Counted from the stretch's first letter, positions 2,387 through 52,600 are shown. The stretch is 64,000 nt of DNA from a virus (IMGVR_UViG_3300037780_000016:1-64000); one strand, 5' to 3'. Notes: generated from the letters alone by a model not told the origin. Translations and numbers: made by a program.

Positions 2387-2716
2387 ATGGCCCAATCGAA
2401 GATGAGCCGGGTCATCACCGGCCTTGGATTTACCGGTATCGCCTTGGTGGGCGGGGCACTCGCGGGTGCCCTGCTCGCCGCTTTCGTCTGGCCTGTCGTC
2501 GGGATGACGCTCGTGGTCGGCGCGGCGATCCATCTGACCGGCCACCACGCGACGATCCTGCTGGGTCACGCCAAGATGGCCACGGCTCTCAGGGACGGTC
2601 GGCTGAAGGCTGACGTGCAGCGCTCCCTCGGCGGGCACATCTGGAATTTCCTGAGACGCACCGCTATGATCTGGGCGGTCACCATCTATGGAGTATGGCA
2701 TGCGGTTCAAACCTGA
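2387..2716 (+). CDS. hypothetical membrane protein
   Basis: RBS GGAGG, 2-3 hydrophobic segments. Confidence 0.7.
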   Translation: MAQSKMSRVITGLGFTGIALVGGALAGALLAAFVWPVVGMTLVVGAAIHLTGHHATILLGHAKMATALRDGRLKADVQRSLGGHIWNFLRRTAMIWAVTIYGVWHAVQT

Positions 2717-3029
2717 AGACCTCGAAGGCGTCAGCATCGCCGAACTGAGGCAGCTCATCGACGAAACAGACGTGAAGCTGGTCACGCTCATCCACGAGCG
2801 CATGTCTCTGGCAGCCGCCATGACGCAGCACAAGCATGACGCCGGGATGCCGGTCGCCTGCCCGGACCGGGAAGACGCCGTGATCCAGAACGTCGTGGAC
2901 CGGGCGAACACGCTGGACGACAAGCACGGCACCTCCTACATGGCCCGGGTCACCCTGAGCGTCATCTGGACAGCCCTCTTCAATCAGGCGAAGGTTATCC
3001 AGCACACCCTATTGGCTGAAGATAATTGA
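2700..3029 (+). CDS. chorismate mutase (AroQ/type II)
   Basis: ELRQLIDETDVKLVTLIHERMSLAAAMTQHK...PDRE...AKVIQ reproduces the spacing of E. coli CM catalytic R11, R28, K39, R51, E52, plus a Q88-like residue. Confidence 0.85.
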   Translation: MRFKPEDLEGVSIAELRQLIDETDVKLVTLIHERMSLAAAMTQHKHDAGMPVACPDREDAVIQNVVDRANTLDDKHGTSYMARVTLSVIWTALFNQAKVIQHTLLAEDN

Positions 3030-15131: not shown

Positions 15132-15451
15132 ACCTGACAGAGCGCTGGCACGAGACCCTGCAACGCATCATGTCCAACGTGGATATCACCGAGGACGGGT
15201 GCTGGCTCTGGAAGGGCGGAACGTCCGGTGATGGTCGTGGTGGCGGATACGCTCGCATGAGCCTCAACGGCTCCACTGTCGCGGTCCATCGCGTCATGTA
15301 TACCCACTTCAACGGGTACATCCCGGGGAAGAAACAAATCGATCACGTCTGCCGCAACCGAGCGTGTGTGAACCCGGCCCATCTGGAAATGGTGAGCCAT
15401 AAGGAAAACCAGAAGCGCCGCGACGCGGCCAGAGAAAGGGCAACGTCATGA
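15116..15451 (+). CDS. HNH endonuclease (HNH_3-type)
   Basis: GCWLWKG...GY...VHRV...IDHVCRNRACVNPAHLEMVSHKEN. Confidence 0.85.
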   Translation: MGTPLNLTERWHETLQRIMSNVDITEDGCWLWKGGTSGDGRGGGYARMSLNGSTVAVHRVMYTHFNGYIPGKKQIDHVCRNRACVNPAHLEMVSHKENQKRRDAARERATS

Positions 15452-16026
15452 TCATCATCGACGATTTCATCTCGACCAAACGCCAAGGGATGCTCCGCAA
15501 CCACCTGATGACGGAGATCGACTGGGAACGCCGAGAGGACGCCCCACGATCCGAATACTGGATGAACGAACTGGGCGAGGATTACACCTACGGCCAAGGT
15601 CGAGGCGTCCGCACCTACGAGCCCCACGAGATGACTGATCTGGTCAAGAACCTGCGTGAGGTGATCAGGCACTACTACCTCGCCGGAGGTTTCCGAGCCC
15701 CGTCTCTGGAAGGGTGCTTCCTGAACATGTATCGCGGTGGCCGCGACTGGCTGGGCTGGCACGCAGACGATGACCCGGGGATCAACCACGAAGACCCGAT
15801 TGCGATCATCACGCTGGGCAACTGCTCTCGGAAGATCGACTGGAAGGTCCAAGGCTCCAAGGGAATGGAAGCGATCAACAGCGCTGTCCTGCACCCGGGT
15901 TCATTGGCCCTCATGCCTGCCGGGATGCAGCAGACGCACTTCCACCGCATCCCCAAGGCCGTGGACCTCCCCGAGGACGCGTGGCGTATCTCTCTCACTT
16001 TCCGCAGCTTGATTGGTCAACAATGA
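15448..16026 (+). CDS. alkB: AlkB-family 2OG-Fe(II) dioxygenase (ALKBH2/3-like)
   Basis: LNMYRGG..LGWHADD (HxD), HRIPK, RISLTFR. Confidence 0.85.
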   Translation: MIIIDDFISTKRQGMLRNHLMTEIDWERREDAPRSEYWMNELGEDYTYGQGRGVRTYEPHEMTDLVKNLREVIRHYYLAGGFRAPSLEGCFLNMYRGGRDWLGWHADDDPGINHEDPIAIITLGNCSRKIDWKVQGSKGMEAINSAVLHPGSLALMPAGMQQTHFHRIPKAVDLPEDAWRISLTFRSLIGQQ

Positions 16027-20966: not shown

Positions 20967-21076
20967 AAACGCTGAACCCGGGTGCAAATAGGGTTGCCAG
21001 CCGTTTATGCTTGTGTGTATTTTCGCCTCATCAGCCGGGCACTAACGGCGCAGCAGAGCGACTTGGAGACACCAGC

Positions 21077-21886
21077 ATGACCGCGAAGGTTTCGTTCGAG
21101 CATATCAAACCGGGGGACATTGTACCCTATGACAACAACCCCCGTGACAACGAAGCCGCCATCGAAGCGGTCCGTAACTCCATCGAAGAGTTCGGCTTTT
21201 TGGTCCCCGTGGTCGTTGACGACGACAACGTACTGGTCGCGGGCCACACCCGCCTTGAGGCCATCACCCGCATCCTGAAGGATGATCCGACCAAGACGGA
21301 CATCTACGAGACCATCCCCGCGATCCGTGCCCGTCACCTGACGAAAGAGCAGATCGACACCTTCCGCATCGTCGATAACAAGACTTCCGAACTGGCGGAC
21401 TGGGACTTCGACAAGCTGGCCACCGAGATCGCTGCCCTCACCAAGTCCGGCATCGACATGGTGCAGTTCGGCTGGAAGCAGGAAGAGCTGGACTGCCTGT
21501 CCAACGTGGTCGCTCTCGACTGTCTCGGTGATGGTGCTCTGGCCGGGCTGGCTGACGCTGACGACGCCACCTCTGGCCAGACCAACGCAACCCCGGACGG
21601 CATCAACACCGCCCATGGTGGCGGCTACGAAAACGGCAAGACCCGTGACGGCCTCTCTGCCCGCATCGCCTTCGGCGGCATGCTGGGCTTCTTCGTACTC
21701 ACCGAGGACTTCGACCACTGGTGGGACGAGCAGATGAAGGCCAACGACTACAACCCCGAGAAGACCCTCGAAAGCCTCGCTGAAAAGCTGGGCCTGAAGG
21801 AAGCCTACGACCGCCGCAAGGAGATGGTCTCGGCTCAGGACACCGAGGACGAGGGCGAGAAAGCCACGGAGAGCAACGCCGCCTAA
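21077..21886 (+). CDS. ParB/Srx N-terminal domain protein
   Basis: PYDNNPRDN...SIEEFGFLVPVVVD...AGHTRLEA...FRIVDNKTSE. Confidence 0.85.
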   Translation: MTAKVSFEHIKPGDIVPYDNNPRDNEAAIEAVRNSIEEFGFLVPVVVDDDNVLVAGHTRLEAITRILKDDPTKTDIYETIPAIRARHLTKEQIDTFRIVDNKTSELADWDFDKLATEIAALTKSGIDMVQFGWKQEELDCLSNVVALDCLGDGALAGLADADDATSGQTNATPDGINTAHGGGYENGKTRDGLSARIAFGGMLGFFVLTEDFDHWWDEQMKANDYNPEKTLESLAEKLGLKEAYDRRKEMVSAQDTEDEGEKATESNAA

Positions 21887-21913
21887 CCACGTTCAAGATC
21901 GGAGGCATCTGCC

Positions 21914-23506
21914 ATGGCGGAAGCAAAACTCATCTCCCTCGCCGACCTCGAACCTGCGGCGTACAACCCCCGAGAAGCCGACACGGAACGCCTCCGTCTG
22001 CTGGGTATGTCCCTGCGGAAGCTCGGCTTCATCCTGCCCCTGTACGCGGACCCCGATGGTCGGCTCCTGTCCGGGCACCAACGCCTGTTGACGGCGACCA
22101 ATCTGAACTGCACCCATGCGCCGGTCATGGAGATCAACCCCGAGGGCTCCCATGGTGAGACCGCGAAGACGCTGAACGTGATCTTCAACCGGGCGACCAA
22201 TGACATGGCCGGGACAGAGGACAGCCAGCAGCTCCTGAAGAAGCTCGGCCTGTACGACCTCCAAGCGAAGCTGGACGCGGTGCCGGACAAGGACGTGACC
22301 AGCGACGAGTTCTTCCGCTGCGTGAACCCCGAGATGGTCCCGCTGGCTGATCTGAAGGACGGGCTGACCCGGACCTACGACATGGGCGCGGTCTCTATGG
22401 CCACGAAGCTGTTCCGCCGGGGTGTCAAGATGAACGCCGTGGTGAACCGGGACACTGGCGAGATCGTGAACGGGAACTTCCGTATCATGGCTGCCATGGA
22501 GAACGCGGGCAAAATCCAAGGGCTCGATCCGTACCCGGTCGTCTACATCTCGAACGAGGAAGCTGAGCTGGCCGGGCTCCTCCTGAACATGATCAGCATG
22601 CGGTTCACGCTGGAAAAGCAGTACGCGGACGATCTGCGTTTCGGCTCCTTCCGCCGGACGACGCTGGTGGTGGAAGACCTGACGCTGGCCATGCGTGCGT
22701 GGGTGGACGGGGCTGCGAAGAGCGCCCACGAAAGCCTCGCCAATCCGATGAAGTTCTGGTCGAAGTTCCGCAAGATGTACGGCAACTCCGTACTGGACTT
22801 CGGGGCCGGACAACGCCGCCAAGGTCGCATCTTCGAGCAGAAGGGCATCCGTGCAACGGAATGGGAGCCCTACCCCTGTGACGTGCACCGGGAAATCCCG
22901 GGCTCCGACAGCACCCGCCCGAACCTTCAACTGGCCCGACAGGTCACAGATACGTTTCTGGAAGACGTCCGCAATGGGGTCGCGTGGGATGGCATCTTCC
23001 TGAGCGCCGTACTGAACTCTGTGCCCTTCCTCCGCGACCGGCTGATCGTCCTGACCGTGGTGCATTCGCTCTGCCACCTGCACACGAAAGTCGCGGGCAC
23101 CTGCCGGGACGCCCGGTACAAGGACGGGACGAAGCGCCTGAACCGGGTGCGCCAAGACGGCAAGATCGCCACCGCCGTATCGGTGTTCGACCTCGACTAC
23201 GAGGAGGACGTCGTGATCGGCGACATCAACCGGGCTCCCAAGGTGCAGAAGTACGAGCACCCCGAGGGCATGCGGGCGATGATGCACCCCTTCTTCGAGA
23301 CGGTCGAAATCAAAGCTGGGCAGGGCAAACTCCTGTTCCAGTGCCAGCACCCGAAGCGTGTGAACCTGTCCCTGTTGAAGACTGCTCTCCTGCACGAGTT
23401 CAATCTGCCCTATCCGGACGGGGAAAGCCTCGACCGGGGACAGCAGGCTCTGGACGCGTGGGGCGAACGTCTCGGCGTGGACTTCTCCAAGATTGAGGAA
23501 GCATAA
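21914..23506 (+). CDS. tandem ParB-like domains fused to a SAM-dependent (amino-type) DNA methyltransferase-like domain
   Basis: YNPR...GFILP...SGHQR; second unit EIVNGNFR; motif I VLDFGAG; strand-4 motif FLSAVLNSVPF. Confidence 0.75.
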   Translation: MAEAKLISLADLEPAAYNPREADTERLRLLGMSLRKLGFILPLYADPDGRLLSGHQRLLTATNLNCTHAPVMEINPEGSHGETAKTLNVIFNRATNDMAGTEDSQQLLKKLGLYDLQAKLDAVPDKDVTSDEFFRCVNPEMVPLADLKDGLTRTYDMGAVSMATKLFRRGVKMNAVVNRDTGEIVNGNFRIMAAMENAGKIQGLDPYPVVYISNEEAELAGLLLNMISMRFTLEKQYADDLRFGSFRRTTLVVEDLTLAMRAWVDGAAKSAHESLANPMKFWSKFRKMYGNSVLDFGAGQRRQGRIFEQKGIRATEWEPYPCDVHREIPGSDSTRPNLQLARQVTDTFLEDVRNGVAWDGIFLSAVLNSVPFLRDRLIVLTVVHSLCHLHTKVAGTCRDARYKDGTKRLNRVRQDGKIATAVSVFDLDYEEDVVIGDINRAPKVQKYEHPEGMRAMMHPFFETVEIKAGQGKLLFQCQHPKRVNLSLLKTALLHEFNLPYPDGESLDRGQQALDAWGERLGVDFSKIEEA

Positions 23507-23508
23507 GA

Positions 23509-24234
23509 ATGGAAAACCACGACCCCCACTTCCCGAAGAGCAACTTTGCCTTCGACGAGACCGTCGCCCCGATCTTCGACAGCATGGCTGCTCGTTCGAT
23601 CCCGGGGTACGCGCTGGCACATCAGCACATCACCGAATACATGAGCGTCGCTGACCTGACCCCGTTCGACGCGGTCTGGGACTTCGGGTGCTCGACCGGG
23701 GCGGGGCTGGTCGCTGCACGTAAAGGTGCTGGCCAGACCCCGTTGCGCTATATCGGTGTCGATCCCTCTCAGCCGATGCTGGACATCGTCAAGGAGCGCT
23801 ATCCGTGGGTGCAGACGATCCAAGGTGAGCTGCCCCGGGCAGAAGCCTTCCCGTGGTCGGACATGCAGACGTTCGGCTCCGCCACGGCCTGCATCTTTGC
23901 CTACACGCTCCAATTCATGCCGAACCCTGACGACCGCCGGAAGATGCTGCAACAGGCATACGCGGCTCTTCAGCCCGGCGGCATGCTGTTCGTGTTCGAG
24001 AAGTGGAAGATCGACGGCATCTTCGAGGACATCGAAAACCAGCGCTATTGGAAGTGGCGTATGGACAACGGCTACACCGGTCACGAGATCGAGCACAAAA
24101 CCGAAGCGCTCAAGGGGTCCATGTGGCCGTGGCGCGAGACTGACCTGACCGATGCCCTCCAAGCGGCGGGCTTCACGAGGATCAACCAACTGTATCGCCA
24201 GTTCATGTTTGGCGGATACGTAGCAGTGAAGTGA
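23509..24234 (+). CDS. cmoA: CmoA-like carboxy-S-adenosyl-L-methionine synthase
   Basis: FAFDETVAPIFDSMAARSIPGY, DFGCSTG, YTLQF, LQPGGMLFVFEK, NGY..EI..K, AGF..LYRQFMFGG track CmoA end to end. Confidence 0.8.
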   Translation: MENHDPHFPKSNFAFDETVAPIFDSMAARSIPGYALAHQHITEYMSVADLTPFDAVWDFGCSTGAGLVAARKGAGQTPLRYIGVDPSQPMLDIVKERYPWVQTIQGELPRAEAFPWSDMQTFGSATACIFAYTLQFMPNPDDRRKMLQQAYAALQPGGMLFVFEKWKIDGIFEDIENQRYWKWRMDNGYTGHEIEHKTEALKGSMWPWRETDLTDALQAAGFTRINQLYRQFMFGGYVAVK

Positions 24235-24244
24235 ACCCGGGTTC

Positions 24245-25057
24245 ATGACAACGGAGAACGGTAGTCCACGTCCAAGGTGGCGACCGCGACCCGGAACACA
24301 GCCTTCTAGCCCGCTGTCGCCCGATGATCGCAGACGCTTCCTTGAGATGGCCAACAGCTCAGACCCTGTCGTGTCGGAGACCGGGAGAGCTGTGCTTGAA
24401 GGCCGTCCCCCGGACCACCGTAATCTGTTGTCCACCACCCCGGCTGAAGTCCTCGGCCCTGACCCGGTCGCCGAAGCGAACGCAGAACGCGCCCTAGCGA
24501 CGGCGGAAGAAAACCCCGGGCGTGCTCTGTCCCCGTCGGGCGGCAAGGAAGCCAAGCTCCGTATGCTCGCCATGCTGGAACCGGCTCGCCTGTCCGATGA
24601 AGCGGTCGCGAACCAGCTCGGGGTCAGCATAAACACGCTGAGGAACTATTACGTCGAACTGCGACGCCGACGCCGTGAGAAGCTGGCCTACACCGATCCG
24701 CAACAGATGGTCGCCGACCTCCTGATGCCGCTCGGGAATATCATGGCCGGTGTACAGCGCGACCTGATCAACCTGCCGTCCAATGCGACCAACGCGGAGA
24801 AGACAGCCCTCCGCCGTCTGGTGCTGGAAACGCAGCAGCGCATGGTGTCTACGCTCCTGAACTCCAAATACTTCGACTTCGCCCCGCTCATCGTGCAGAG
24901 CGATATCGAGGAGAGCGCCGGTACGGACATGGCGAAGATCGACCGCCTCTTGGCTATCGCTGTGCGTGACGACGTCGAGAGCGAGGAGGACTTCAAGGAG
25001 AAGCTGGGCGAACTGGAAACCTCCACTCTCGAAGAGCGTGAGAAGGGGCTGTTCTGA
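24245..25057 (+). CDS. putative terminase small subunit
   Basis: HTH-like AVANQLGVSINTLRNY, helical; coupled directly upstream of TerL. Confidence 0.55.
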   Translation: MTTENGSPRPRWRPRPGTQPSSPLSPDDRRRFLEMANSSDPVVSETGRAVLEGRPPDHRNLLSTTPAEVLGPDPVAEANAERALATAEENPGRALSPSGGKEAKLRMLAMLEPARLSDEAVANQLGVSINTLRNYYVELRRRRREKLAYTDPQQMVADLLMPLGNIMAGVQRDLINLPSNATNAEKTALRRLVLETQQRMVSTLLNSKYFDFAPLIVQSDIEESAGTDMAKIDRLLAIAVRDDVESEEDFKEKLGELETSTLEEREKGLF

Positions 25058-27012
25058 TGTTCGTAGACAAGTCCCTGAACGTCGAGGCGAAGCGGCTGGC
25101 GGAAGCCATGCTGAAGGTCTCCCAGCATCTCGGCCCCCGGATCGGGAAGGCTCACGAGTGGGCTGCCGAAGAGTGTATCGAGAACGACAACCCGTGGCCC
25201 CTCTTCCACCTCCGGATGCTGAACAAGTTCCCGGTGCAGATCGAAGAGTTTCTGGACAGCCCGGAATTCCTCGGTGGTCAGGTCCAAATCTGGCCGAAGC
25301 TGCGGGAAGAGATCATCGCCATGGCTCCGGACGTCTGGACTGGGGCGACGCACAATCACGAAGTCCTACTCGGCGGTGCGACTGGTACGGGCAAGACGAC
25401 CATGAGCTTCGCGCTCAATGCGTACCACTGGTATCTGACGACCTGCCTGAAGAGCCCCCAGCGCTATTTCGGCATGGCGTCGGTGACCGACATCGTGTTC
25501 GCGTTCATGTCCGTGTCGATGAAGGTCACGGAGCGAGTGATCTATGGCCCACTGCGTAAGGCCATCGAGAACATGCCGTACGCGAAGAAGCACACCAACT
25601 GGGACCGCTACACGACCCGGGAGATGAAGTTCTCCAACGGTGTCCGTCTGGTGCCCATGCTGGCGCTGCACGAGGCGATCCTCGGCCAGAACATCATCGG
25701 CGGCATGATCGACGAGATCAACTTCATGTCGATCATCGAGAAGTCCAAGCAGGTGGCAGGTGCCCGGGGCGAAGGCGGCTTCTACGATCAGGCCGAGATC
25801 ATCTACAACGAGACATCACGTCGTCGTGAGCGTACCTATCAGACGCCGGGCATCAACATGGGTGCTCTGTGCGTCCTGTCCTCGACCCGATACGAAGACG
25901 ACTTCATGGACCGCCGTATGCGCGAGGTACAGCAGGGGGACACGAAGAAGAAGTCTGGCGTCTACGTCTTCCGCAAGCGACGCTTCGACGTGGTGCCGTC
26001 GGCGAACCTGTCCAAGACCAAGTTCAAGTTCCTCGTGGGCTCGGCAGACTATCAGCCCATGATCATTGAAGACGGCATGGTCGAAGGCCGGGACTACCCC
26101 GACGGCGGCACGATCATGGAGGTGCCGGACAACTTCCTCGACAGCTTCGAGCGTGACCCGGCGGGTGCCCAGCGAGACATCCTCGGCGTGGCGACCGACG
26201 CGATCAGCCCGTTCATCACGAACCGCGTGAAGATCGTGGACAGCATCATGCGCTGGCGGGAGCGTGAGCAAATCCTGTTCGTCAAGAAGCAGAATGTGAA
26301 CTACGGCAAGGATGGCATGCCCGCCGTGGAAGAAGACCTGCTGCCGTACAAGGACGAGATGGAGCGGGACCACTGGGTGCACGTTGACTTGGCCATCTCC
26401 GGGGATAGCTGCGGCATCGCCATCGTCCGGCATGAGGGCTTCTCTGCGGTCAACGACCCTGACGACCCGACCATGGTGCACAACCTGCCCATGTTCACGG
26501 TAGTCGGAGCGTTCGGTATCGAGCCGTCGAAGGCACACCCGATTGAGGTCTCGGCTGTCCGGGACTGGGTGCTTCAGCTCGCCAATTACTGGGGCTTCAA
26601 CATTCGCCAGATCAGCTATGACGGCTTCCAGTCCACGGAGAGCCTGCAACTGATCCGGAAGGCTGGCATCCGGGCGAAGGAAGTCTCGGTGGACCGGACG
26701 GTCGAGCCGTACATGACCCTGCGCGACGCCATCTACCAGAACCGCCTCGACATGGTGGACAACGATATGCTTCGGCACGAACTGTCCACTCTGGAATTCA
26801 ACGCTGAGAAGTCCATCGTGGATCACCCGCCGAAGGGCTCCAAGGACGTGGCCGATGCCGTGGCCGGTGCGGTATTCGCAGCGACGAGCTTCCCGAAAAT
26901 CCGTGCCCAGATCAAATCCTACAAGGCAGACGGCAACCGCGTACGGAGCCCGGGCTTCACCAAGCGGAACGCGAACCGGAACCGCCCGCTCAATCTGGGG
27001 AGGAAGGCGTGA
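25057..27012 (+). CDS. terL: terminase large subunit
   Basis: Walker A GATGTGKT, Walker B GMIDE, nuclease HVDLA, YDGFQS, DHPPKGSKDVADA. Confidence 0.9.
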   Translation: MFVDKSLNVEAKRLAEAMLKVSQHLGPRIGKAHEWAAEECIENDNPWPLFHLRMLNKFPVQIEEFLDSPEFLGGQVQIWPKLREEIIAMAPDVWTGATHNHEVLLGGATGTGKTTMSFALNAYHWYLTTCLKSPQRYFGMASVTDIVFAFMSVSMKVTERVIYGPLRKAIENMPYAKKHTNWDRYTTREMKFSNGVRLVPMLALHEAILGQNIIGGMIDEINFMSIIEKSKQVAGARGEGGFYDQAEIIYNETSRRRERTYQTPGINMGALCVLSSTRYEDDFMDRRMREVQQGDTKKKSGVYVFRKRRFDVVPSANLSKTKFKFLVGSADYQPMIIEDGMVEGRDYPDGGTIMEVPDNFLDSFERDPAGAQRDILGVATDAISPFITNRVKIVDSIMRWREREQILFVKKQNVNYGKDGMPAVEEDLLPYKDEMERDHWVHVDLAISGDSCGIAIVRHEGFSAVNDPDDPTMVHNLPMFTVVGAFGIEPSKAHPIEVSAVRDWVLQLANYWGFNIRQISYDGFQSTESLQLIRKAGIRAKEVSVDRTVEPYMTLRDAIYQNRLDMVDNDMLRHELSTLEFNAEKSIVDHPPKGSKDVADAVAGAVFAATSFPKIRAQIKSYKADGNRVRSPGFTKRNANRNRPLNLGRKA

Positions 27013-28027: not shown

Positions 28028-28468
28028 ATGAAGGTCCAAGTCAAACGCCTCACCCCGACGGCGGTCATTCCCGCGTACCAATCCGAAGGTGCCGCCGGGT
28101 TCGACTTCCACGCCGATCTGGGCAAAGACCCCGCCGTCTTGATCAACCCCGGGCAGACAGTGCTGGTCGCCACCGGCCTCGCGTTCGCGGTTCCGAAGGG
28201 TTACGAGATGCAAGTCCGTGCCCGTTCGAGTATGGCGCTCAAGAAGGGCCTCACGGTCCAGAACTCCCCGGGCACCGTGGACAGCGACTATCGCGGCGAA
28301 GTTCACGTGATGCTGCACAACAACTCCGGCAAACTGCAAATGGTCAACCATGGTGACCGCATCGGTCAGGGCCTGATCAAGGAAGTCCCTCCGGTCGAAT
28401 TCGAGGAAGTCGATACGCTGGACGAAACGGCTCGCGGTTCCGGCGGCTATGGGTCCACCGGCCAATGA
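28028..28468 (+). CDS. dut: dUTPase (trimeric)
   Basis: AAGFD, RSS, GTVDSDYRGE, RIGQ, RGSGGYGSTG. Confidence 0.95.
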   Translation: MKVQVKRLTPTAVIPAYQSEGAAGFDFHADLGKDPAVLINPGQTVLVATGLAFAVPKGYEMQVRARSSMALKKGLTVQNSPGTVDSDYRGEVHVMLHNNSGKLQMVNHGDRIGQGLIKEVPPVEFEEVDTLDETARGSGGYGSTGQ

Positions 28469-29268
28469 TCGGGGCAGAAGAGCAGTATCTGGCCCTCCTG
28501 CGGACCATCTTCCACACAGGGGACAAGGTCGAGGAGCGAACCGGCGTGGGCACGCGCTCTATTCTGGGCGCACAGCTCCGCTATGACATCTCCGAACGCT
28601 TCCCCCTCCTGACCACCAAGAAGGTCTACTGGAAGGGCGTCGCTGAGGAGCTGTTCTGGTTCCTGCGCGGGGCGACCAACGTGCGGCCCCTACAAGCGAA
28701 GGGCGTCCATATCTGGGACGCATGGGCCGACGAGAACGGTGATCTCGGCCCGGTCTACGGGGCGCAGTGGCGTAACTGGCGCAGCGGCGGGCTCCGGTAT
28801 GATCAGGTGACACACCTGATGGACCAGCTCGAAGTGAACCCGGGTTCACGACGCCATATCCTGACGGCGTGGAATGTGGCCGACCTGAGCAACATGGCAC
28901 TTCCGCCCTGTCACCTTCTGACCCAATTCCATGTCCGGGATGGCAAGCTCTCGGCTCATCTGTATCAGCGGTCGGCTGACATGTTCTTGGGCGTGCCCTT
29001 CAACATCGCCAGCTACTCGCTTCTGGTGTACCTCATGGCGTACAAGCTGGGGCTTCAGCCGGGTGAGCTGATCCACACGTTCGGCGACGTTCACATCTAT
29101 GAGAACCACATGGAACAGGTGAACGAGCAGTTGACCCGCGATCCTCGGCCTCTGCCGACCCTTGAGGTCTCCGGCGAGTTCGATGACCTCTGTGAGGCGA
29201 CCATGGACAATCTCACCCTGACTGGCTACGATCCGCACCCGGCGATCAAAGCTCCGGTCGCAGTATAA
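28465..29268 (+). CDS. thyA: thymidylate synthase ThyA
   Basis: RTGVGT, PLLTTK, EELFWF, LGPVYGAQWR, SRR, ALPPCH, YQRSADMFLGVPFNIASY, HIYENH. Confidence 0.97.
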   Translation: MIGAEEQYLALLRTIFHTGDKVEERTGVGTRSILGAQLRYDISERFPLLTTKKVYWKGVAEELFWFLRGATNVRPLQAKGVHIWDAWADENGDLGPVYGAQWRNWRSGGLRYDQVTHLMDQLEVNPGSRRHILTAWNVADLSNMALPPCHLLTQFHVRDGKLSAHLYQRSADMFLGVPFNIASYSLLVYLMAYKLGLQPGELIHTFGDVHIYENHMEQVNEQLTRDPRPLPTLEVSGEFDDLCEATMDNLTLTGYDPHPAIKAPVAV

Positions 29269-32770: not shown

Positions 32771-34576
32771 ATGTCCGATACCACCGAGCAGAAGAAAAAG
32801 AACACGAAAGCCAAGAACGATCTGTTCAAGGCTGCCGCCAAAGAGCCGATGATCATTCAGGCTTTCCGCGATGCCGAAGGCAGTCAGCAGGTGGACGACG
32901 TGTTCGCGGCCAAGCAAGGTCGGTATGGCGGACAGGTCGGCGAGATGCAGGTCATCAAGCCGCCCTACAACCCGTCCTTCTTGCAGCGCCTGCCTATCGA
33001 AAGCTCGATCCTGCGCCAGTGCATCGACGCCACTGTCACCAACACTGAGGCCCACGGCTATATGCTGGACTTCGATGAGGAGTATTACATCGAGACCGAG
33101 GATGGTGAGAGCACCATCCCCGAGGCGGCTGAGCAGGAAAAGAAGCGCATCGAACAGCTCATGGATTACCCGAACGAGGATTACACGGGACAGGAGCTGC
33201 GTGAACGCCTCCGCCGTGACCTTGAGAACACGGGCAACGCCTACATCGAAGTGGTGCGCAACAAGAAGGGCGAGGTGGACCGGTTCTACCATCTGCCTTC
33301 TGCCACGACCCGTCTGACCTCCAAGGAGAAGACGGCGGTCGAGGTGGACGTATTCCTGCCCCGTTCGGACGGCGACACCAAAAAGGTGCCGAAGAAGTTC
33401 AAGCGGTTCGTGCAGCAGATCGGCACCAAGAAAATCTGGTTCAAGGAGTTCGGCGATCCCCGCAAGGTGAGCTGGGAGAACGGCAAAGCCGCCGAGACCC
33501 TGAAGCCCGAGGACGAGGCGACTGAGATCATCCACGTCCGCCTGTATGACAGCGACACGCCGTACGGCCTGCCCCGGTGGATCAACCAGCTCCCGAACAT
33601 TCTGGGTCTTCGCCAGTCCGAGCTGACGAACCTCGACTTCTTCAAGGACAACGCCATCCCGGCGCTGGCCGTTCTTGTGTCTGGTGGCTCCCTGACCGAG
33701 CGCGGTATGCGTGCTCTGGAAGAAACCCTGACGCAGGTCCGTGGACGTGACGCGGTGAACCGGGTGCTCCTGCTGGAAAGCACCTTCGACGAGGAAGCCC
33801 AGACTGACACGGGCGCGGCCCCTGTCCCGCGTCTGGACATCAAGCCCCTCGCTGGCGAGCGCCAGTCGGACGCGATGTTCCAAGAGTACGAGAACCGCAT
33901 CGCCGACAAAATCCGGTCCAGCTTCCGTCTGGCTCCGCTCTTCATCGGCCTGACCACGGACTACACGTACGCAACCGCCAAGACGTCGTTCGAGGTGACC
34001 GAGAGCCAGCTCTTCGAGCCGGAGCGCCGACGCTTTGACGACATCGTGAACTTCAAGCTCCTGCCGACGCTGGGGGTGAAGTATTGGACCTTCAAGTCCA
34101 AGTCTCCGACCCTGACCGACCCGCAGGACATCGTCTCGGCTCTGAACACTCTGGCGACGACCGGTGCCATGACGCCGAACCAAGCCATCGCCATCGCCAA
34201 CGAGCACTTCAACCTTGAGATCGACCTGATCGCCCATGCGTGGGGCAACTACCCGATGGAAATCGTCCGGATGCTGGCCAACAAGGTCACCCTGTCCGGC
34301 TCCGAGGAAGTCGGCGAGGCTCTGGACAACGCGGTGGAAGACCTCAACGACGAAAGTGAAGAGGGCGCGGAGACCGACGAGACCGCCGTCGAGGAAGGCG
34401 AAGAGGCGGAAGCCGTCGAGCCTGACCCGAACGCGGAGCCCGAAGAGGAAGACGCGAACAAGGTCATGCGCAAAGCGCTTCAGGCTATCGCTGACACCGT
34501 GCGCACCAAGGCAGAGTTCGACGTGCGGACCAACATGACCGTTCGCAAGCGGACCCGCCCCGATGTGCAGCAGTAA
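32771..34576 (+). CDS. portal protein (PBSX/P2-like)
   Basis: TGNAYIEVVRN, YGLPRW, FFKDNAIP, FRLAPLFIG; first head gene. Confidence 0.88.
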   Translation: MSDTTEQKKKNTKAKNDLFKAAAKEPMIIQAFRDAEGSQQVDDVFAAKQGRYGGQVGEMQVIKPPYNPSFLQRLPIESSILRQCIDATVTNTEAHGYMLDFDEEYYIETEDGESTIPEAAEQEKKRIEQLMDYPNEDYTGQELRERLRRDLENTGNAYIEVVRNKKGEVDRFYHLPSATTRLTSKEKTAVEVDVFLPRSDGDTKKVPKKFKRFVQQIGTKKIWFKEFGDPRKVSWENGKAAETLKPEDEATEIIHVRLYDSDTPYGLPRWINQLPNILGLRQSELTNLDFFKDNAIPALAVLVSGGSLTERGMRALEETLTQVRGRDAVNRVLLLESTFDEEAQTDTGAAPVPRLDIKPLAGERQSDAMFQEYENRIADKIRSSFRLAPLFIGLTTDYTYATAKTSFEVTESQLFEPERRRFDDIVNFKLLPTLGVKYWTFKSKSPTLTDPQDIVSALNTLATTGAMTPNQAIAIANEHFNLEIDLIAHAWGNYPMEIVRMLANKVTLSGSEEVGEALDNAVEDLNDESEEGAETDETAVEEGEEAEAVEPDPNAEPEEEDANKVMRKALQAIADTVRTKAEFDVRTNMTVRKRTRPDVQQ

Positions 34577-49642: not shown

Positions 49643-52600
49643 ATGAAGTCGGAAATCGATCTCTCTGTAGAGTTCCACAAACCCGTAGCTATCGAAGGCG
49701 CTGGCGGTAAGGGCGGCGGTGGCGGAGGCAAGGAAGCCCCCGACAGCCTGCGCTCGAACTCGTCTGGCAAGCTGCAACACATCCTGTCCGAAGGTCCGTG
49801 CGGCGGCATCGAAGGCGGTCTTGAAGGCGTCCATTACAACGAGACGCCGCTGATGGTGGGCTCCCAGAAAAACTTCAAGGGCGTCCTGATGTACGAGAAC
49901 TTTGGCCGGGGCGATCAAGCGTCCATGCCGGGGTTCGACGCAGTCACGAACGTCGTACAGGTTCAGCAGGCCGTGACGCAGGCATCCGGCGGTTACGCCG
50001 TGGCCTTCACGGACGCTCAGGTCACCGCTGTCAAAGTCACGATCTCCACGTCCAGCTTCTTCGAGGCTGACGACAAGGGCAATGTGAACGGCTCCTCCGT
50101 CACCTTCGCTATCGACCTGTCTCTGGGCGGTGGTGCGTTCAATCAGGTTGCCACGGGCACCATCACGGGTAAGACGCGCACGAAGTACGAGCGCGACATC
50201 CGTATCCCGATTGACAGCCCCGGTCAGGTCTCCGTACGCCTTCGCCGCGTCACGGCTGACAGCTCGTCCCTGAAGATCGAAAACACGATCAGCTTCGAGC
50301 GCTATACGCGTGTGATCGAGCATCGCCTGAACTACCCGTTCCTCGCGACGGCTGGCCACATCTTCGACGCCAAGCAGTTCGGCAACCGCATCCCGCAGGT
50401 CCAGTACCGCTTCAAGGGTCGGAAGGTGAAAGTCTTCTCGAACATGGACGGTGCAGCCCGGACGTTCTCCGGCAACTGGGATGGCACGTTCAAGGTGGCT
50501 GAAGAGTGGACCACGTGTCCCGTCCTGATCTTCCGCGATCTGGTCCTGAACAAGCGCTATGGTCTGGGCAAGCATGTCCCGGAAAGCCTGCTCGATGGGC
50601 CGACCCTCTATCAGCTCTCGCAGTTCTGTGCCGAGCTGGTCCCCGATGGTAGCGGTGGGCAGGAACACCGTTTCAGCACCAACGTCGTCCTGAACCGCCG
50701 CTCTGAGGCGTTCAACCTGCTGCAACAGCTCACCGCTGCCTTCCGTTCCATGCTCTTCTGGATGGACGCCAAGCTGTGGCTCCTGTCCGACCAAGATCGC
50801 GACCCGGTCAAGGTGGTGACCAACGCCAATGTGATCGGCGGCAAGTTCACCTATGCGGGCGAGAGCAACAAGCAACGCTACTCCGTCGTCAACGTCTCCT
50901 ACACCCGGGATGACGATTACTTCCGCAAGGGCGTGGAAGTGGTCGAGGACCGTGAGTTGATCAAGGAGCTGGGCTGGAAACCGACCGACCTCGGCACGCT
51001 GGGCGTCTCCTCGCGCGGTCAGGCCCGCCGTCTCGGCCTCTACCTGCTGAACGATCAGGAGCGTGAAGGCGAACTGGTCACCTATCAGGCGTCCTTCGAT
51101 CACCTGCAAGTCGCGGCTGGCGATGGCCCCTCTGGCGTTGCACCCGGTTCACGCATCCTGATCGCGGACAAAGAACGCGGCAACGCTCTGGTGCAAGGCC
51201 GGGCGACCGGCGTGTCTGGCTCTGACATCACGCTGGACCGCGACACGGGCGAGACGGGCACCGGCAACGGCACTCTCTACATGGAGACCGACGAAGGTGT
51301 CATGGAGAGCGTGGCGTGTACCTACACCGGCTCTGTGGTCACCGCGACCGAAGCGTTTACCGGCACCCCGGCGTCGGGCAACCTGTTTATCCTTGTGACC
51401 GGTGTTTCGGTCGCGGAGGAGTTCACGGTCGTCAACGTCACCGAGAAGGACAAGAACACCATTGAGGTGGTCGCCAAGAAGTTCGACAGCACGAAGTGGG
51501 CGCGTATCGACAACGATACCCCGACCGTCGGCCCGGACATCATGCAGCGCCCCTCCCCTGAGTATGTCGAGGCCCCGACGGCTTTCGACGCTCAGATCAA
51601 CTGGGTGACGCACACCGACCACCTCGAAAAGAAACTGGACATCGACTGGACCGACAGCACCGATGAGTTGCTGGACAACTACATGGTCCTGTACCAGCAC
51701 AACAACGGGAACTGGAAGGTTCTCGAAGCGTCCACGTCCACCTCCAACATCATCTTGGAGAAGGCGGAGACGGGCACCTACAATTTCCAGATTTACGCGG
51801 TGAACAGCGCTGGTCGCCAGTCTCTGCCTCTGGAAGGTTCCATCGTGGTCCCGGCGGTCCCGCCGACCGTGGACAACGCCGTGGGCACCGTCTCCAATCT
51901 GGCTCTGGACGAAGGCGGCACCGAGTTCACCGGCCATTCCGCCAAGTTCAACTGGAACGTCAATTCCCCGACCGGCGTGGCAATCCAAGACGAGATCGGT
52001 GGAACGCAGAACACGGGCGCTATCGACCCGAATTTCCGCGACTGTCTGGTCACGGTGAAGCGCACCGACGATACGGTTCTGCGCACCGAGAGCGTCGTGG
52101 GTAACCACTACGTTTATACTTCTGAGAAGAACACCGAAGACAATTTCGAGCTGGACGCCTCGGCCCCGGTCCGTAATTTCAAGGTCGAGGTCCAGTACCG
52201 CGACAAGTTCAACCGGGTATCCACGGCGGAGGTGATCACCGTCAGCAACCCGGCTCCGGCTGCTCCGACCCTGTCCACCGAGACGGTCCCGCGTGGCGTC
52301 ATGCTGACCGCGACGTCCCCGACCGATCTGGACTGGGCGGGTGCTCGCGTCTGGACGAAGGACACGGCCAGCATCAACCCGGCCTCCGACCCGTACACCG
52401 ACTATGGCCGGGTCAACGCCTTCTTCATCCCCGTGAACCCGGGTGCAACGAAATACTTCCGCGTGGCCTTCTTCGACGAGTTCGGCAAGACCACGGGCGA
52501 ACTGAACGTCTCCGCTGAAGGTTCGGCGTCTGTCCCGCTTGTCGGCAATACCGACATCGGCGCTGGCGTCATCGCCATCGACCGGCTGGTGCAGACGGCT

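What the first reader, a model, noticed from the sequence alone, without database searches (positions are those of the whole stretch)
21077..27012. Candidate carboxy-SAM-dependent DNA carboxymethylation system built into the packaging operon (ParB, ParB-ParB-MTase, CmoA, TerS, TerL)
Seen: a tightly spaced run of ParB-domain protein, double-ParB/Rossmann transferase fusion, full-length CmoA-like gene and terminase genes; no CmoB-like gene is visible in the window. Established: CmoA makes carboxy-SAM from SAM and prephenate, normally for CmoB-dependent tRNA cmo5U. DNA-modifying enzymes often sit in ParB-terminase loci of phages. The carboxymethylating DNA transferases I know of are C5-cytosine type. 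Inference: the adjacent transferase has no C5 Pro-Cys motif but a strand-4 'VLNSVPF' resembling amino-MTases. It may move a carboxymethyl group onto adenine N6 or cytosine N4, guided by ParB and coupled to packaging. The same genome encodes the enzyme that makes prephenate (2700-3029), so the pathway could be self-contained. Caveat: by eye, the position of E. coli CmoA R199 is Thr here (EIEHKT vs EISQKR).
Basis: partly seen in the sequence, partly recalled or inferred. Interest (0 to 1): 0.92.

Follow-up and report, generated by a model that had tools for sequence, protein, structure and literature searches.

The report
Phage carboxy-SAM module, ParB-fused transferase
A complete 92-kb phage carries, just ahead of its DNA-packaging genes, a gene for a likely maker of the rare cofactor carboxy-SAM next to an uncharacterised enzyme fused to two ParB domains; together they probably carboxymethylate phage DNA by a route unrelated to the only one described (CmoX, 2025), but no chemistry has been measured.

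Summary
In order they are ParB-like (21077-21886), a ParB-ParB-class I methyltransferase fusion (21914-23506), a full-length CmoA homologue (23509-24234), a putative TerS and a weakly matching TerL, spaced like one operon.

The genome has no C5-methyltransferase, N6/N4-methyltransferase or CmoB match. The fusion is therefore the only candidate user of carboxy-SAM.

The fusion belongs to a large uncharacterised family (phrog_5475; 291 clusters at 50% identity). In 77 of 80 viral loci a CmoA-like gene sits directly downstream of it.

This phage also encodes a chorismate mutase with an intact active site (prephenate supply). Outside the window it has an AsnB-type amide ligase like CmoY, and that ligase lies beside the cassette in the two closest relatives.

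The R199-to-Thr change is real. However, that position also varies in CmoA genes that sit next to C5-type CmoX genes.

The proposed N6-adenine or N4-cytosine target is not established. The nearest folds are small-molecule and tRNA N-methyltransferases, and the family has no invariant cysteine.

Best reading: a new variant of the CmoA-CmoX-CmoY system with a non-homologous transferase.

This scan has already noted the same cassette in at least 24 other genomes.

The parts
20994..21023 (+). Promoter-like site ahead of the cassette (TTGCCA, 18 nt, TATTTT). A copy of the genome-wide 14-bp palindrome lies at 20973-20986 just upstream.
   Evidence: Consensus scan only; sequence read; palindrome sites.
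21077..21886 (+). Stand-alone ParB-like protein (269 aa) with a ParB/sulfiredoxin N-terminal domain and the GHTR box. Possible loader or activator of the transferase on double-stranded DNA.
   Evidence: phrog_620 at 4.3e-44, no Pfam hit. GGAGA ribosome-binding site before the ATG. Homologues lie upstream of the fusion in 28 of the 80 related viral loci by blastp.
21914..22243 (+). Fusion protein, ParB/sulfiredoxin-fold domain 1 (about residues 1-110; invariant G54 H55 Q56 R57).
   Evidence: phrog_620 at 6e-18. hhalign against the ParB profile gives 98.4% probability. Invariant columns.
22247..22651 (+). Fusion protein, ParB/sulfiredoxin-fold domain 2 (residues 112-246; invariant N186 G187 R190).
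   Evidence: AlphaFold2 model of the domain alone, pLDDT 84.9. Foldseek top hits are ParB, Noc and KorB. In VIA-align the top 8 hits are all ParB/sulfiredoxin fold, Z 5.3-7.8.
22652..23506 (+). Fusion protein, class I SAM-type transferase domain and candidate carboxymethyltransferase. Motif I is LDFGAG (D295, G297, G299) and the acidic residue is E318. Also invariant: N368, S369, P371, F372, R376, K443, Q445 and R519. The family has no invariant Cys.
   Evidence: phrog_5475 at 1.7e-85. Some family members hit PF13489. Full-length model pLDDT 89.9. Foldseek and VIA-align hits. Conservation.
23509..24234 (+). CmoA homologue (241 aa), candidate carboxy-SAM synthase. SAM-contact residues Y39, D62, G64, S66, D89, F137 and K198 are kept; R199 is Thr and N132 is Ala.
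   Evidence: TIGR00740 at 3.1e-34, 118.7 bits, below the cut-off of 193.3. 1im8 at 1.1e-26 and 4gek at 1.7e-19, both full length. Residue table.
24245..25057 (+). Putative small terminase subunit (270 aa). The identity is unverified.
   Evidence: Position between the CmoA-like gene and TerL. No family hit. Language-model neighbours are viral hypothetical proteins and sigma-70 region 4 / helix-turn-helix clusters.
25057..27012 (+). Large terminase subunit (651 aa), weakly matching.
   Evidence: phrog_2 at 3.5e-7, phrog_9 at 2.7e-5, phrog_2699 at 1.3e-4; no Pfam hit. It is 37-45% identical to the gene in the same position in phages HJ05 and SM1. A portal gene follows at 32771-34576.
2688..3029 (+). 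AroQ-type chorismate mutase, the likely prephenate supply for the CmoA homologue. It is specific to this phage.
   Evidence: PF01817 at 3.3e-13, 50.1 bits against a cut-off of 27. Catalytic positions of the E. coli enzyme are conserved. Absent from 42 related records.

Best explanation
The proposed pathway, with each step marked as shown or inferred:
1. The phage chorismate mutase raises the prephenate pool (enzyme identity supported; role inferred).
2. The CmoA homologue converts SAM and prephenate into carboxy-SAM (inferred from homology).
3. The class I transferase domain of the ParB-ParB fusion uses carboxy-SAM to put a carboxymethyl group on replicated phage DNA. Its two ParB/sulfiredoxin-fold domains, and perhaps the stand-alone ParB, would bring it to double-stranded DNA (inferred).
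4. There is no catalytic cysteine, so the chemistry would be direct alkylation of a nitrogen or oxygen nucleophile rather than C5 addition. The target atom is unknown.
5. An AsnB-type ligase elsewhere in the genome may then convert the carboxyl group into an amide, as CmoY does (inferred).
6. The genes sit at the head of the packaging operon, so DNA would be marked late, before it is packaged, presumably to evade host nucleases (inferred).

Only the gene identities, domain folds and co-occurrence are shown here.
For: 1. Tight pairing. Of 80 IMG/VR loci that encode a homologue of the fusion, 77 have a CmoA-like ORF directly downstream. Of the 3 exceptions, L029 ends at the contig edge. The same order is found in cultured phages of Aeromonas (HJ05), Pseudomonas (SM1 group) and Gordonia (Evaa).
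2. No alternative transferase. The complete genome has no PF00145, PF01555 or CmoB match.
3. CmoA identity. The homologue is full length, CmoA is its best family and best solved-structure match, and the SAM-contact residues and K198 are conserved.
4. Same cofactor enzyme with both partner types. In a quick tree, CmoA genes linked to the fusion interleave with CmoA genes from C5-type CmoX or CmoY contexts. Evaa pairs with TurkishDelight, and Y3 plus Afa-NA1 pair with the largest fusion-linked clade, both at 99% SH-aLRT.
5. Ligase. An Asn_synthase-family protein with the PP-loop SGGVDS lies at genome 89321-90562 (PF00733, 9.6e-15). It resembles the Asn-synthase-family genes that sit beside cmoA (the CmoY position) in S-B05 and Y3 (2e-8, 9e-10). 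Homologues lie 2.7-4.6 kb upstream of the cassette in the two closest relatives and are present in HJ05.
6. Chorismate mutase with conserved catalytic positions.
7. Literature. Phage CmoA with CmoX makes 5-carboxymethylcytosine, with ParB-domain genes often nearby (PMC12783734). ParB-Methyltransf_23 fusions are enriched in phages (PMC12704722). A phage ParB activates a DNA dioxygenase on double-stranded DNA (PMC13229309).
Against: - No biochemical or DNA-composition data exist for any member of the family.
- The CmoA homologue scores below NCBIfam's equivalog cut-off and lacks R199 (Thr) and N132 (Ala). R199 is described as the key carboxylate-binding residue (PMC3663124).
- The transferase domain shows no specific similarity to CmoB or CmoX. 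Only motif I aligns.
- Its nearest folds act on small molecules or tRNA, so neither a DNA target nor carboxy-SAM use is demonstrated.
- The chorismate mutase and the ligase are not universal partners. The mutase is in 0 of 42 relatives, and the ligase is missing from SM1 and Evaa.
Confidence: 0.6

Rival explanations
1. The fusion is an ordinary SAM-dependent DNA methyltransferase. The CmoA homologue would serve a separate purpose, for example draining host SAM into carboxy-SAM to blunt SAM-dependent defences, or modifying tRNA through the host's CmoB.
For: The transferase has a standard SAM-binding motif I and acidic residue. No carboxylate-binding residue has been identified. PMC12783734 itself raises SAM depletion by phage CmoA as a possibility. 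ParB-methyltransferase fusions are common in phages (PMC12704722).
Against: Adjacency in 77 of 80 loci across very different phages is hard to explain if the two functions are independent. An AsnB-type ligase beside the cassette in close relatives implies a carboxyl substrate. The phage invests in prephenate supply.
Confidence: 0.15
2. The module uses carboxy-SAM, but the target is not DNA. It could be a tRNA or other RNA, a nucleotide pool metabolite, or a protein. The ParB/sulfiredoxin domains would then act as nucleotide-binding modules rather than DNA-binding ones.
For: The nearest structural neighbours are METTL6 (tRNA m3C), Trm9, toxoflavin and glycine N-methyltransferases. ParB-fold domains bind ATP, CTP or GTP in many fusions (PMC12704722). 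Middle-domain hits include the kinase SerK and sulfiredoxin. The phage encodes its own dNMP kinase.
Against: The cassette sits next to the terminase in almost all loci. A stand-alone ParB partner resembles the one that activates a DNA dioxygenase (PMC13229309). The associated ligase resembles the candidate CmoY-type ligases of cyanophage S-B05 and Erwinia phage Y3, and CmoY acts on DNA. Thymidylate synthase and dUTPase are canonical, which argues against a modified-pyrimidine nucleotide route.
Confidence: 0.15
3. The CmoA-like protein of this sub-clade has diverged (R199T, N132A). It would make a different SAM derivative or act as a plain methyltransferase, so the mark would not be carboxymethyl.
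For: Its score is below the equivalog cut-off. The Arg described as key for the carboxylate is absent in the window's 12-member clade.
Against: Position 199 is also non-Arg in CmoA genes that lie beside C5-type CmoX genes (S-B05 has Glu, TurkishDelight has Ala), while K198 is invariant. A phage chorismate mutase fits a prephenate-dependent reaction. The fusion pairs with R199-bearing CmoA genes in 32 of 70 cases.
Confidence: 0.1

Closest known systems
CmoA-CmoX-CmoY system of Synechococcus phage S-B43 (5-carboxymethylcytosine and its glycine amide; Yang et al., Nat Commun 2025, PMC12783734)
   Same: A phage-encoded CmoA homologue, no CmoB, an associated Asn-synthetase-type ligase, ParB-domain proteins nearby, and a presumed post-replicative DNA mark.
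   Different: The transferase here is not a C5-cytosine methyltransferase homologue. PF00145 does not match, there is no SPPC motif, and the family has no invariant Cys. It is instead a ParB-ParB fusion to a Methyltransf_23-like class I domain. The cassette lies in the packaging operon. This phage adds a chorismate mutase. The authors state that they found no N6-adenine or N4-cytosine carboxymethyltransferase candidates linked to phage CmoA.
E. coli CmoA/CmoB tRNA cmo5U pathway (PMC3663124, PMC4482062)
   Same: A CmoA homologue next to a class I transferase that would use carboxy-SAM; dependence on prephenate.
   Different: There is no CmoB homologue, and hhalign aligns only motif I. The CmoB carboxylate triad K91/Y200/R315 has no identifiable equivalent. 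The CmoA homologue has Thr at R199. The transferase carries ParB domains and sits in a phage packaging context.
ParB-fold fusions to methyltransferases in phages, and ParB-activated phage thymine dioxygenases (PMC12704722, PMC13229309)
   Same: A ParB/sulfiredoxin N-terminal fold fused to, or partnered with, a nucleic-acid-modifying enzyme. ParB-Methyltransf_23 is listed as a phage-enriched fusion.
   Different: Those papers assign no function, cofactor or CmoA link to the Methyltransf_23 fusion. Here the fusion has two ParB-fold domains and an almost obligate CmoA neighbour.
Phage Mu Mom (N6-carbamoylmethyl-adenine; PMC7261163)
   Same: A late-expressed phage enzyme that puts a two-carbon carboxyl-derived group on a base. 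The product of carboxymethylation followed by amidation could resemble the Mom product.
   Different: Per PMC7261163, Mom derives from an unrelated ancestral protein fold, not from a SAM-type methyltransferase, and is unrelated in sequence to the proteins here.

Membership tests
CmoA (carboxy-SAM synthase, TIGR00740) | Score above the curated equivalog cut-off (193.3 bits) | tested here: not met
   118.7 bits, E 3.1e-34. It is the best-scoring family but below the cut-off.
CmoA (carboxy-SAM synthase, TIGR00740) | Full-length homology to solved CmoA structures, including the C-terminal helices | tested here: met
   1im8 at 1.1e-26 (residues 11-241 against 18-244); 4gek at 1.7e-19.
CmoA (carboxy-SAM synthase, TIGR00740) | SAM-contact residues Y39, D62, G64, S66, D89, D117 and F137 (PMC3663124) | tested here: met
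   Y, D, G, S, D and F are conserved. Position 117 is Glu in the multiple alignment. N90 is Pro and N132 is Ala.
CmoA (carboxy-SAM synthase, TIGR00740) | Arg199 salt bridge to the carboxymethyl carboxylate | tested here: not met
   Thr in the window. The position is Arg in 32 of 70 fusion-linked homologues, and is also Glu or Ala in CmoA genes beside C5-type CmoX genes.
CmoA (carboxy-SAM synthase, TIGR00740) | Makes carboxy-SAM from SAM and prephenate | not testable with these tools
   Needs an enzyme assay.
CmoX (C5-cytosine DNA carboxymethyltransferase) | C5-methyltransferase fold (PF00145) with the SPPC catalytic Cys and R350 | tested here: not met
   No PF00145 match in the genome. No invariant Cys in 50 family members. 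Positive controls S-B05 and TurkishDelight hit PF00145 at about 1e-53.
CmoB (tRNA carboxymethyltransferase) | TIGR00452 homology and the K91/Y200/R315 carboxylate triad | tested here: not met
   No genome match at E<=0.1. hhalign aligns 20 columns of motif I only, probability 20%.
DNA amino-methyltransferases (N6-adenine / N4-cytosine) | Motif IV (D/N/S)PP(Y/F/W) after strand 4, with PF01555-type homology | tested here: inconclusive
   N368-S369-V-P371-F372 is invariant but not canonical. PF01555 does not match. DNA amino-methyltransferases are not among the listed fold neighbours, which does not exclude them.
Class I SAM-dependent methyltransferase fold | Rossmann-like fold with motif I (DxGxGxG) and an acidic residue after strand 2 | tested here: met
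   D295, G297, G299 and E318 are invariant. METTL6 gives Z 13.4 over 198 residues, rmsd 3.7. Some members hit PF13489.
ParB/sulfiredoxin N-terminal fold (two copies in the fusion) | ParB-type fold with the GxxR box | tested here: met
   Domain 1: hhalign probability 98.4% and a GHQR box. Domain 2: the top 8 VIA-align hits are all ParB/sulfiredoxin fold, Z 5.3-7.8, and the box is NGNFR.
CmoY-type AsnB-family amide ligase | Asn_synthase domain with the PP-loop SGGxDS | tested here: met
   PF00733 at 9.6e-15, 55.5 bits against a cut-off of 21. SGGVDS is present. BLASTP gives 2e-8 to the S-B05 Asn-synthase-family gene in the CmoY position. There is no glutamine amidotransferase domain. Activity on DNA was not tested.
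AroQ chorismate mutase | CM_2 domain with R11, R28, K39, R51, E52 and Q88 (E. coli numbering) | tested here: met
   PF01817 at 50.1 bits against a cut-off of 27. All six positions are conserved in the alignment with PheA and TyrA. The residue list comes from my own knowledge of the E. coli enzyme.
Terminase large subunit | Homology to the TerL ATPase-nuclease | tested here: inconclusive
   Only weak PHROG hits (3.5e-7 to 1.3e-4) and no Pfam hit. The syntenic gene in phage Evaa is annotated as terminase.

The most novel reading that the evidence does not exclude
The ParB-ParB fusion would be the founding member of a second, non-homologous class of natural DNA carboxymethyltransferases. It would alkylate a nitrogen or oxygen of a canonical base, for example N6 of adenine or N4 of cytosine, using carboxy-SAM. 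In this sub-clade the product would then be amidated by an AsnB-type ligase. The result would be a DNA base modification not yet described in any organism, spread across hundreds of phage lineages.
Probability: 0.3. Interest if true: 0.88.

Novelty: new variant of a known kind. Interest (0 to 1): 0.75.

Why it matters
Carboxy-SAM-dependent DNA modification was first shown in nature only in 2025, and only for C5 of cytosine through CmoX. That paper states that no amino-type carboxymethyltransferase partners of phage CmoA were found.

This cassette supplies such a candidate: a widespread, uncharacterised transferase family (about 290 clusters at 50% identity, 395 IMG/VR contigs) that is almost always next to a CmoA homologue.

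If confirmed, it would have three consequences:
- It would add a new enzyme class and probably a new DNA base.
- It would give ParB-methyltransferase fusions a function.
- It would offer a new enzymatic way to put a carboxyl handle on DNA.

It can be tested directly, because cultured phages carry the cassette (Pseudomonas SM1, PaMx31 and UF_RH6; Aeromonas HJ05; Gordonia Evaa).

This particular genome is the most complete version of the pathway seen here, with precursor supply, cofactor synthase, transferase and candidate ligase.

Tried and rejected
- Near-identical DNA in the phage collection: megablast found none.
- Pfam on the ParB protein, the fusion, TerS and TerL: nothing at E<=0.01. PHROGs was needed.
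- phmmer of the fusion against PDB sequences: only chance hits.
- hhalign of the fusion family against E. coli CmoB and CmoA: motif I only.
- hhalign of the fusion family against the TurkishDelight methyltransferase: nothing. That enzyme is a C5-methyltransferase.
- Chorismate mutase as a conserved partner: rejected. tblastn against 50,697 phage records found no match, and PF01817 was absent from 5 plus 37 related records, many of them fragments.
- A hydroxymethyl-pyrimidine route feeding an O-carboxymethylation: unlikely. The thymidylate synthase passes its equivalog cut-off (392 against 327 bits) and the dUTPase is canonical.
- Complex prediction of the stand-alone ParB with the fusion: no verdict (score 0.01 against a mark of 0.32). 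This is not evidence either way.
- The 14-bp palindrome array as a ParB loading site tied to the cassette: not supported as a general rule. It occurs in the window's phage lineage but not in five other carriers of the cassette.
- Locating the invariant basic residues relative to the cofactor: not possible, because model coordinates are not exposed.

Full report
WHAT IS THERE

The window is the first 64 kb of a complete 91,687-bp virus record with direct terminal repeats. It has about 60% G+C and nearly all genes are on the + strand.

Five + strand ORFs lie at the stated coordinates: 21077-21886, 21914-23506, 23509-24234, 24245-25057 and 25057-27012. They are separated by 27, 2 and 10 nt, and the last pair overlaps by 1 nt. 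A promoter-like site (20994-21023) and a GGAGA ribosome-binding site precede the first ATG. No convincing terminator lies inside the block. A PhoH gene lies upstream. The portal, major head protein, tape-measure protein and a 3,706-aa tail protein lie downstream.

GENE IDENTITIES

ParB-like protein. Pfam saw nothing in it, in the fusion or in either terminase candidate. PHROGs identifies 21077-21886 as a ParB-like protein (phrog_620, 4.3e-44).

The fusion (530 aa).
- It matches phrog_5475, a family of unknown function, over its full length (1.7e-85), and has an N-terminal ParB-like stretch.
- An AlphaFold2 model built on 50 homologues is confident (pLDDT 89.9).
- Residues 2-95 align with the stand-alone ParB profile at 98.4% probability.
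- The middle domain (residues 112-246), folded alone (pLDDT 84.9), finds only ParB/sulfiredoxin-fold chains among the top hits in two searches. Foldseek returns ParB, Noc and KorB. VIA-align returns SerK Z 7.8, KorB 7.6, sulfiredoxin 7.3, PadC 7.3 and SbnI 6.6.
- Residues 235-482 are a class I methyltransferase fold. The nearest chains are METTL6 (Z 13.4), the M. tuberculosis heterocyclic-toxin N-methyltransferase (13.3), the toxoflavin N1-methyltransferase (12.9) and glycine N-methyltransferase (12.1).
- Some homologues carry precomputed PF02195 and PF13489 hits.
- 'ParB-ParB-Rossmann transferase' is therefore right.

CmoA-like protein (241 aa). CmoA is its best NCBIfam family (TIGR00740, 3.1e-34), but the score of 118.7 bits is below the equivalog cut-off of 193.3. 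It aligns end to end with the solved CmoA structures 1im8 and 4gek.

Terminase genes. TerL is only weakly supported. TerS rests on position and helix-turn-helix-like features.

THE PAIR IS A UNIT

- The fusion has about 385 close homologues in the 90%-identity collection.
- It has 291 clusters at 50% identity with E<=1e-30.
- 395 IMG/VR contigs encode a relative.
- Of the 80 loci fetched, 77 have a CmoA-like ORF immediately downstream, judged by an HMM search. This includes a divergent clade that tblastn missed but whose best NCBIfam hit is still CmoA.
- Of the 3 exceptions, L029 ends at the contig edge.
- The same order (ParB, fusion, CmoA-like, then the terminase genes) occurs in Aeromonas phage HJ05, the Pseudomonas SM1/PaMx31 group and Gordonia phage Evaa.

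NO OTHER TRANSFERASE

The complete genome has no match to the C5-methyltransferase family, the N6/N4-methyltransferase family or CmoB at E<=0.1. The fusion shares only motif I with CmoB and CmoA.

The family has no invariant cysteine. Its invariant positions are:
- D295, G297 and G299 (motif I) and E318-P319;
- N368, S369, P371, F372 and R376 just after strand 4;
- K443 and Q445 in the insertion between strands 5 and 6;
- R519.

The lack of a cysteine argues against C5-type covalent catalysis. The invariant basic residues are candidates for binding a carboxylate, as K91/Y200/R315 do in CmoB (PMC4482062) and R350 does in CmoX (PMC12783734). I could not place them in space.

THE R199 CAVEAT

E. 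coli CmoA R199 binds the carboxylate of the cofactor (PMC3663124). In the window protein it is Thr, and N132 is Ala. Three observations weaken the concern:
- Among 70 fusion-linked homologues the position is Arg in 32, Glu in 15, Ala in 9 and Thr in 8, while K198 is invariant.
- The position is Glu in the CmoA of cyanophage S-B05. That phage has the CmoA, Asn-synthase, C5-methyltransferase gene set (cmoA, cmoY and cmoX homologues) described for S-B43. The position is Ala in Streptomyces phage TurkishDelight, whose neighbour is a PF00145 enzyme.
- In a quick maximum-likelihood tree, fusion-linked and CmoX/CmoY-context CmoA genes interleave. Evaa pairs with TurkishDelight, and Y3 plus Afa-NA1 pair with the largest fusion-linked clade, both at 99% SH-aLRT. 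Branches are long, so this is suggestive only.

The caveat stands but is weak.

EXTRA PATHWAY GENES IN THIS GENOME

Chorismate mutase. The ORF at 2688/2700-3029 is an AroQ chorismate mutase (PF01817, 50.1 bits). Positions matching E. coli R11, R28, K39, R51, E52 and Q88 are conserved. It is absent from all 42 related records searched. It is therefore a special feature of this phage, and it fits a need for prephenate.

Amide ligase. Outside the window, at genome 89321-90562, lies an Asn_synthase-family protein (PF00733, 9.6e-15). It has the PP-loop SGGVDS and no glutamine amidotransferase domain. It is similar around the PP-loop to the Asn-synthase-family genes that sit beside cmoA (the CmoY position) in S-B05 and Y3, and to beta-lactam synthetase. 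Homologues lie 2.7-4.6 kb upstream of the cassette in the two closest relatives (contigs of 96 and 82 kb) and are present in HJ05, but not in SM1 or Evaa. An amide ligase needs a carboxyl substrate, which supports a carboxymethyl product.

Nucleotide metabolism. The thymidylate synthase and dUTPase are canonical, so a hydroxymethyl-pyrimidine route is unlikely.

WHAT IS KNOWN

- Yang et al. (PMC12783734) showed that phage CmoA with the C5-methyltransferase homologue CmoX makes 5-carboxymethylcytosine and that CmoY adds glycine. They note ParB-domain genes in many contigs, and state that they found no adenine-N6 or cytosine-N4 carboxymethyltransferase candidates linked to CmoA.
- PMC12704722 lists ParB-Methyltransf_23 fusions as enriched in phages, without a function.
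- PMC13229309 shows that a phage ParB activates a thymine dioxygenase on double-stranded DNA.
- No paper in the library describes this cassette.
- This scan has already noted the same cassette in at least 24 other genomes, with the same reading. My conclusions rest on the tests above, not on those notes.

VERDICT

The core idea is well supported by context but unproven: a self-contained carboxy-SAM pathway whose transferase is not of the C5 type.

The proposed N6-adenine or N4-cytosine target and the coupling to packaging are inference. The fold neighbours are small-molecule and tRNA N-methyltransferases, so a non-DNA target cannot be excluded.

I rate this a new variant of a known kind. My confidence is about 0.6 for carboxy-SAM-dependent DNA modification and about 0.3 for a new N- or O-carboxymethyl base.

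SIDE OBSERVATION

A 14-bp palindrome, TGAACCCGGGTTCA (also TGAACCCGGGTGCA), occurs 33 times in the window against 0.06 expected, and 42 times in the genome. Copies lie at 20973, just before the cassette promoter, and at 24232, spanning the stop codon of the CmoA-like gene.

The four related large phages each have their own array of the form TGCAAC-NN-GTTGCA. Five other carriers of the cassette have none. The array therefore belongs to this phage lineage and is not a general part of the cassette. Whether the lineage's ParB binds it is open.

Noticed in passing
window 980-63032 (33 sites, e.g. 20973-20986 and 24232-24245); whole genome 42 sites: The 14-bp palindrome TGAACCCGGGTTCA (and TGAACCCGGGTGCA) occurs 33 times in the window against 0.06 expected. 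The asymmetric variant is almost always in one orientation. Related phages G001, G002, HJ05 and SM1 have their own arrays of the form TGCAAC-NN-GTTGCA (7-22 exact copies each). Evaa, G004, G020, G025 and G035, which also carry the cassette, have none. It could be an operator or ParB/KorB-like binding site specific to this lineage.
   Followed up: partly
L091:17321-18562 (genome 89321-90562, outside the window) and L091:16606-17340: An AsnB-type amide ligase (PF00733, 9.6e-15; PP-loop SGGVDS; no amidotransferase domain) overlaps by 20 nt a 244-aa protein that hits phrog_4786, annotated 'cysteine dioxygenase'. Both follow the ribonucleotide reductase genes. The ligase is a candidate analogue of CmoY. 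The role of its neighbour is unknown.
   Followed up: partly
window 15448-16026: AlkB-like 2OG-Fe(II) oxygenase (PF13532, 8.6e-16). It could remove stray N-alkyl lesions in a phage that alkylates its DNA, but this was not examined.
   Followed up: no
window 28028-29268: A canonical dUTPase (162 bits against a cut-off of 103) and thymidylate synthase (392 against 327) sit between TerL and the portal gene, inside the packaging and structural block.
   Followed up: partly
L090:1441-2652 (genome 64441-65652): A 403-aa protein combines a dNMP-kinase-like N-terminal part (phrog_139, 5e-41) with a transglycosylase or endolysin-like C-terminal part (phrog_873, 3e-50). This is an unusual fusion.
   Followed up: no
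L091:12291-13631 (genome 84291-85631): A 446-aa protein of unknown function (phrog_17202) has homologues directly upstream of the ParB gene in SM1 (gp050) and in five viral loci (L014, L025, L031, L051, L074). This may reflect genome-order conservation or a further partner of the cassette.
   Followed up: no
proteins P0021 and P0028 (homologues of the fusion, 874 and 881 aa): Two family members carry a LAGLIDADG_3 (PF14528) insertion, probably an intein, inside the ParB-methyltransferase fusion.
   Followed up: no
L007:1448-1906: In the close relative G002, a small SET-domain protein (PF00856, 4e-5) lies directly after the AsnB-type ligase and upstream of the cassette.
   Followed up: no
window 49643-60763: A single 3,706-aa ORF has a central tail fibre J-like N-terminus (phrog_31, 9e-168) and a tail-fibre-like C-terminus.
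   Followed up: no
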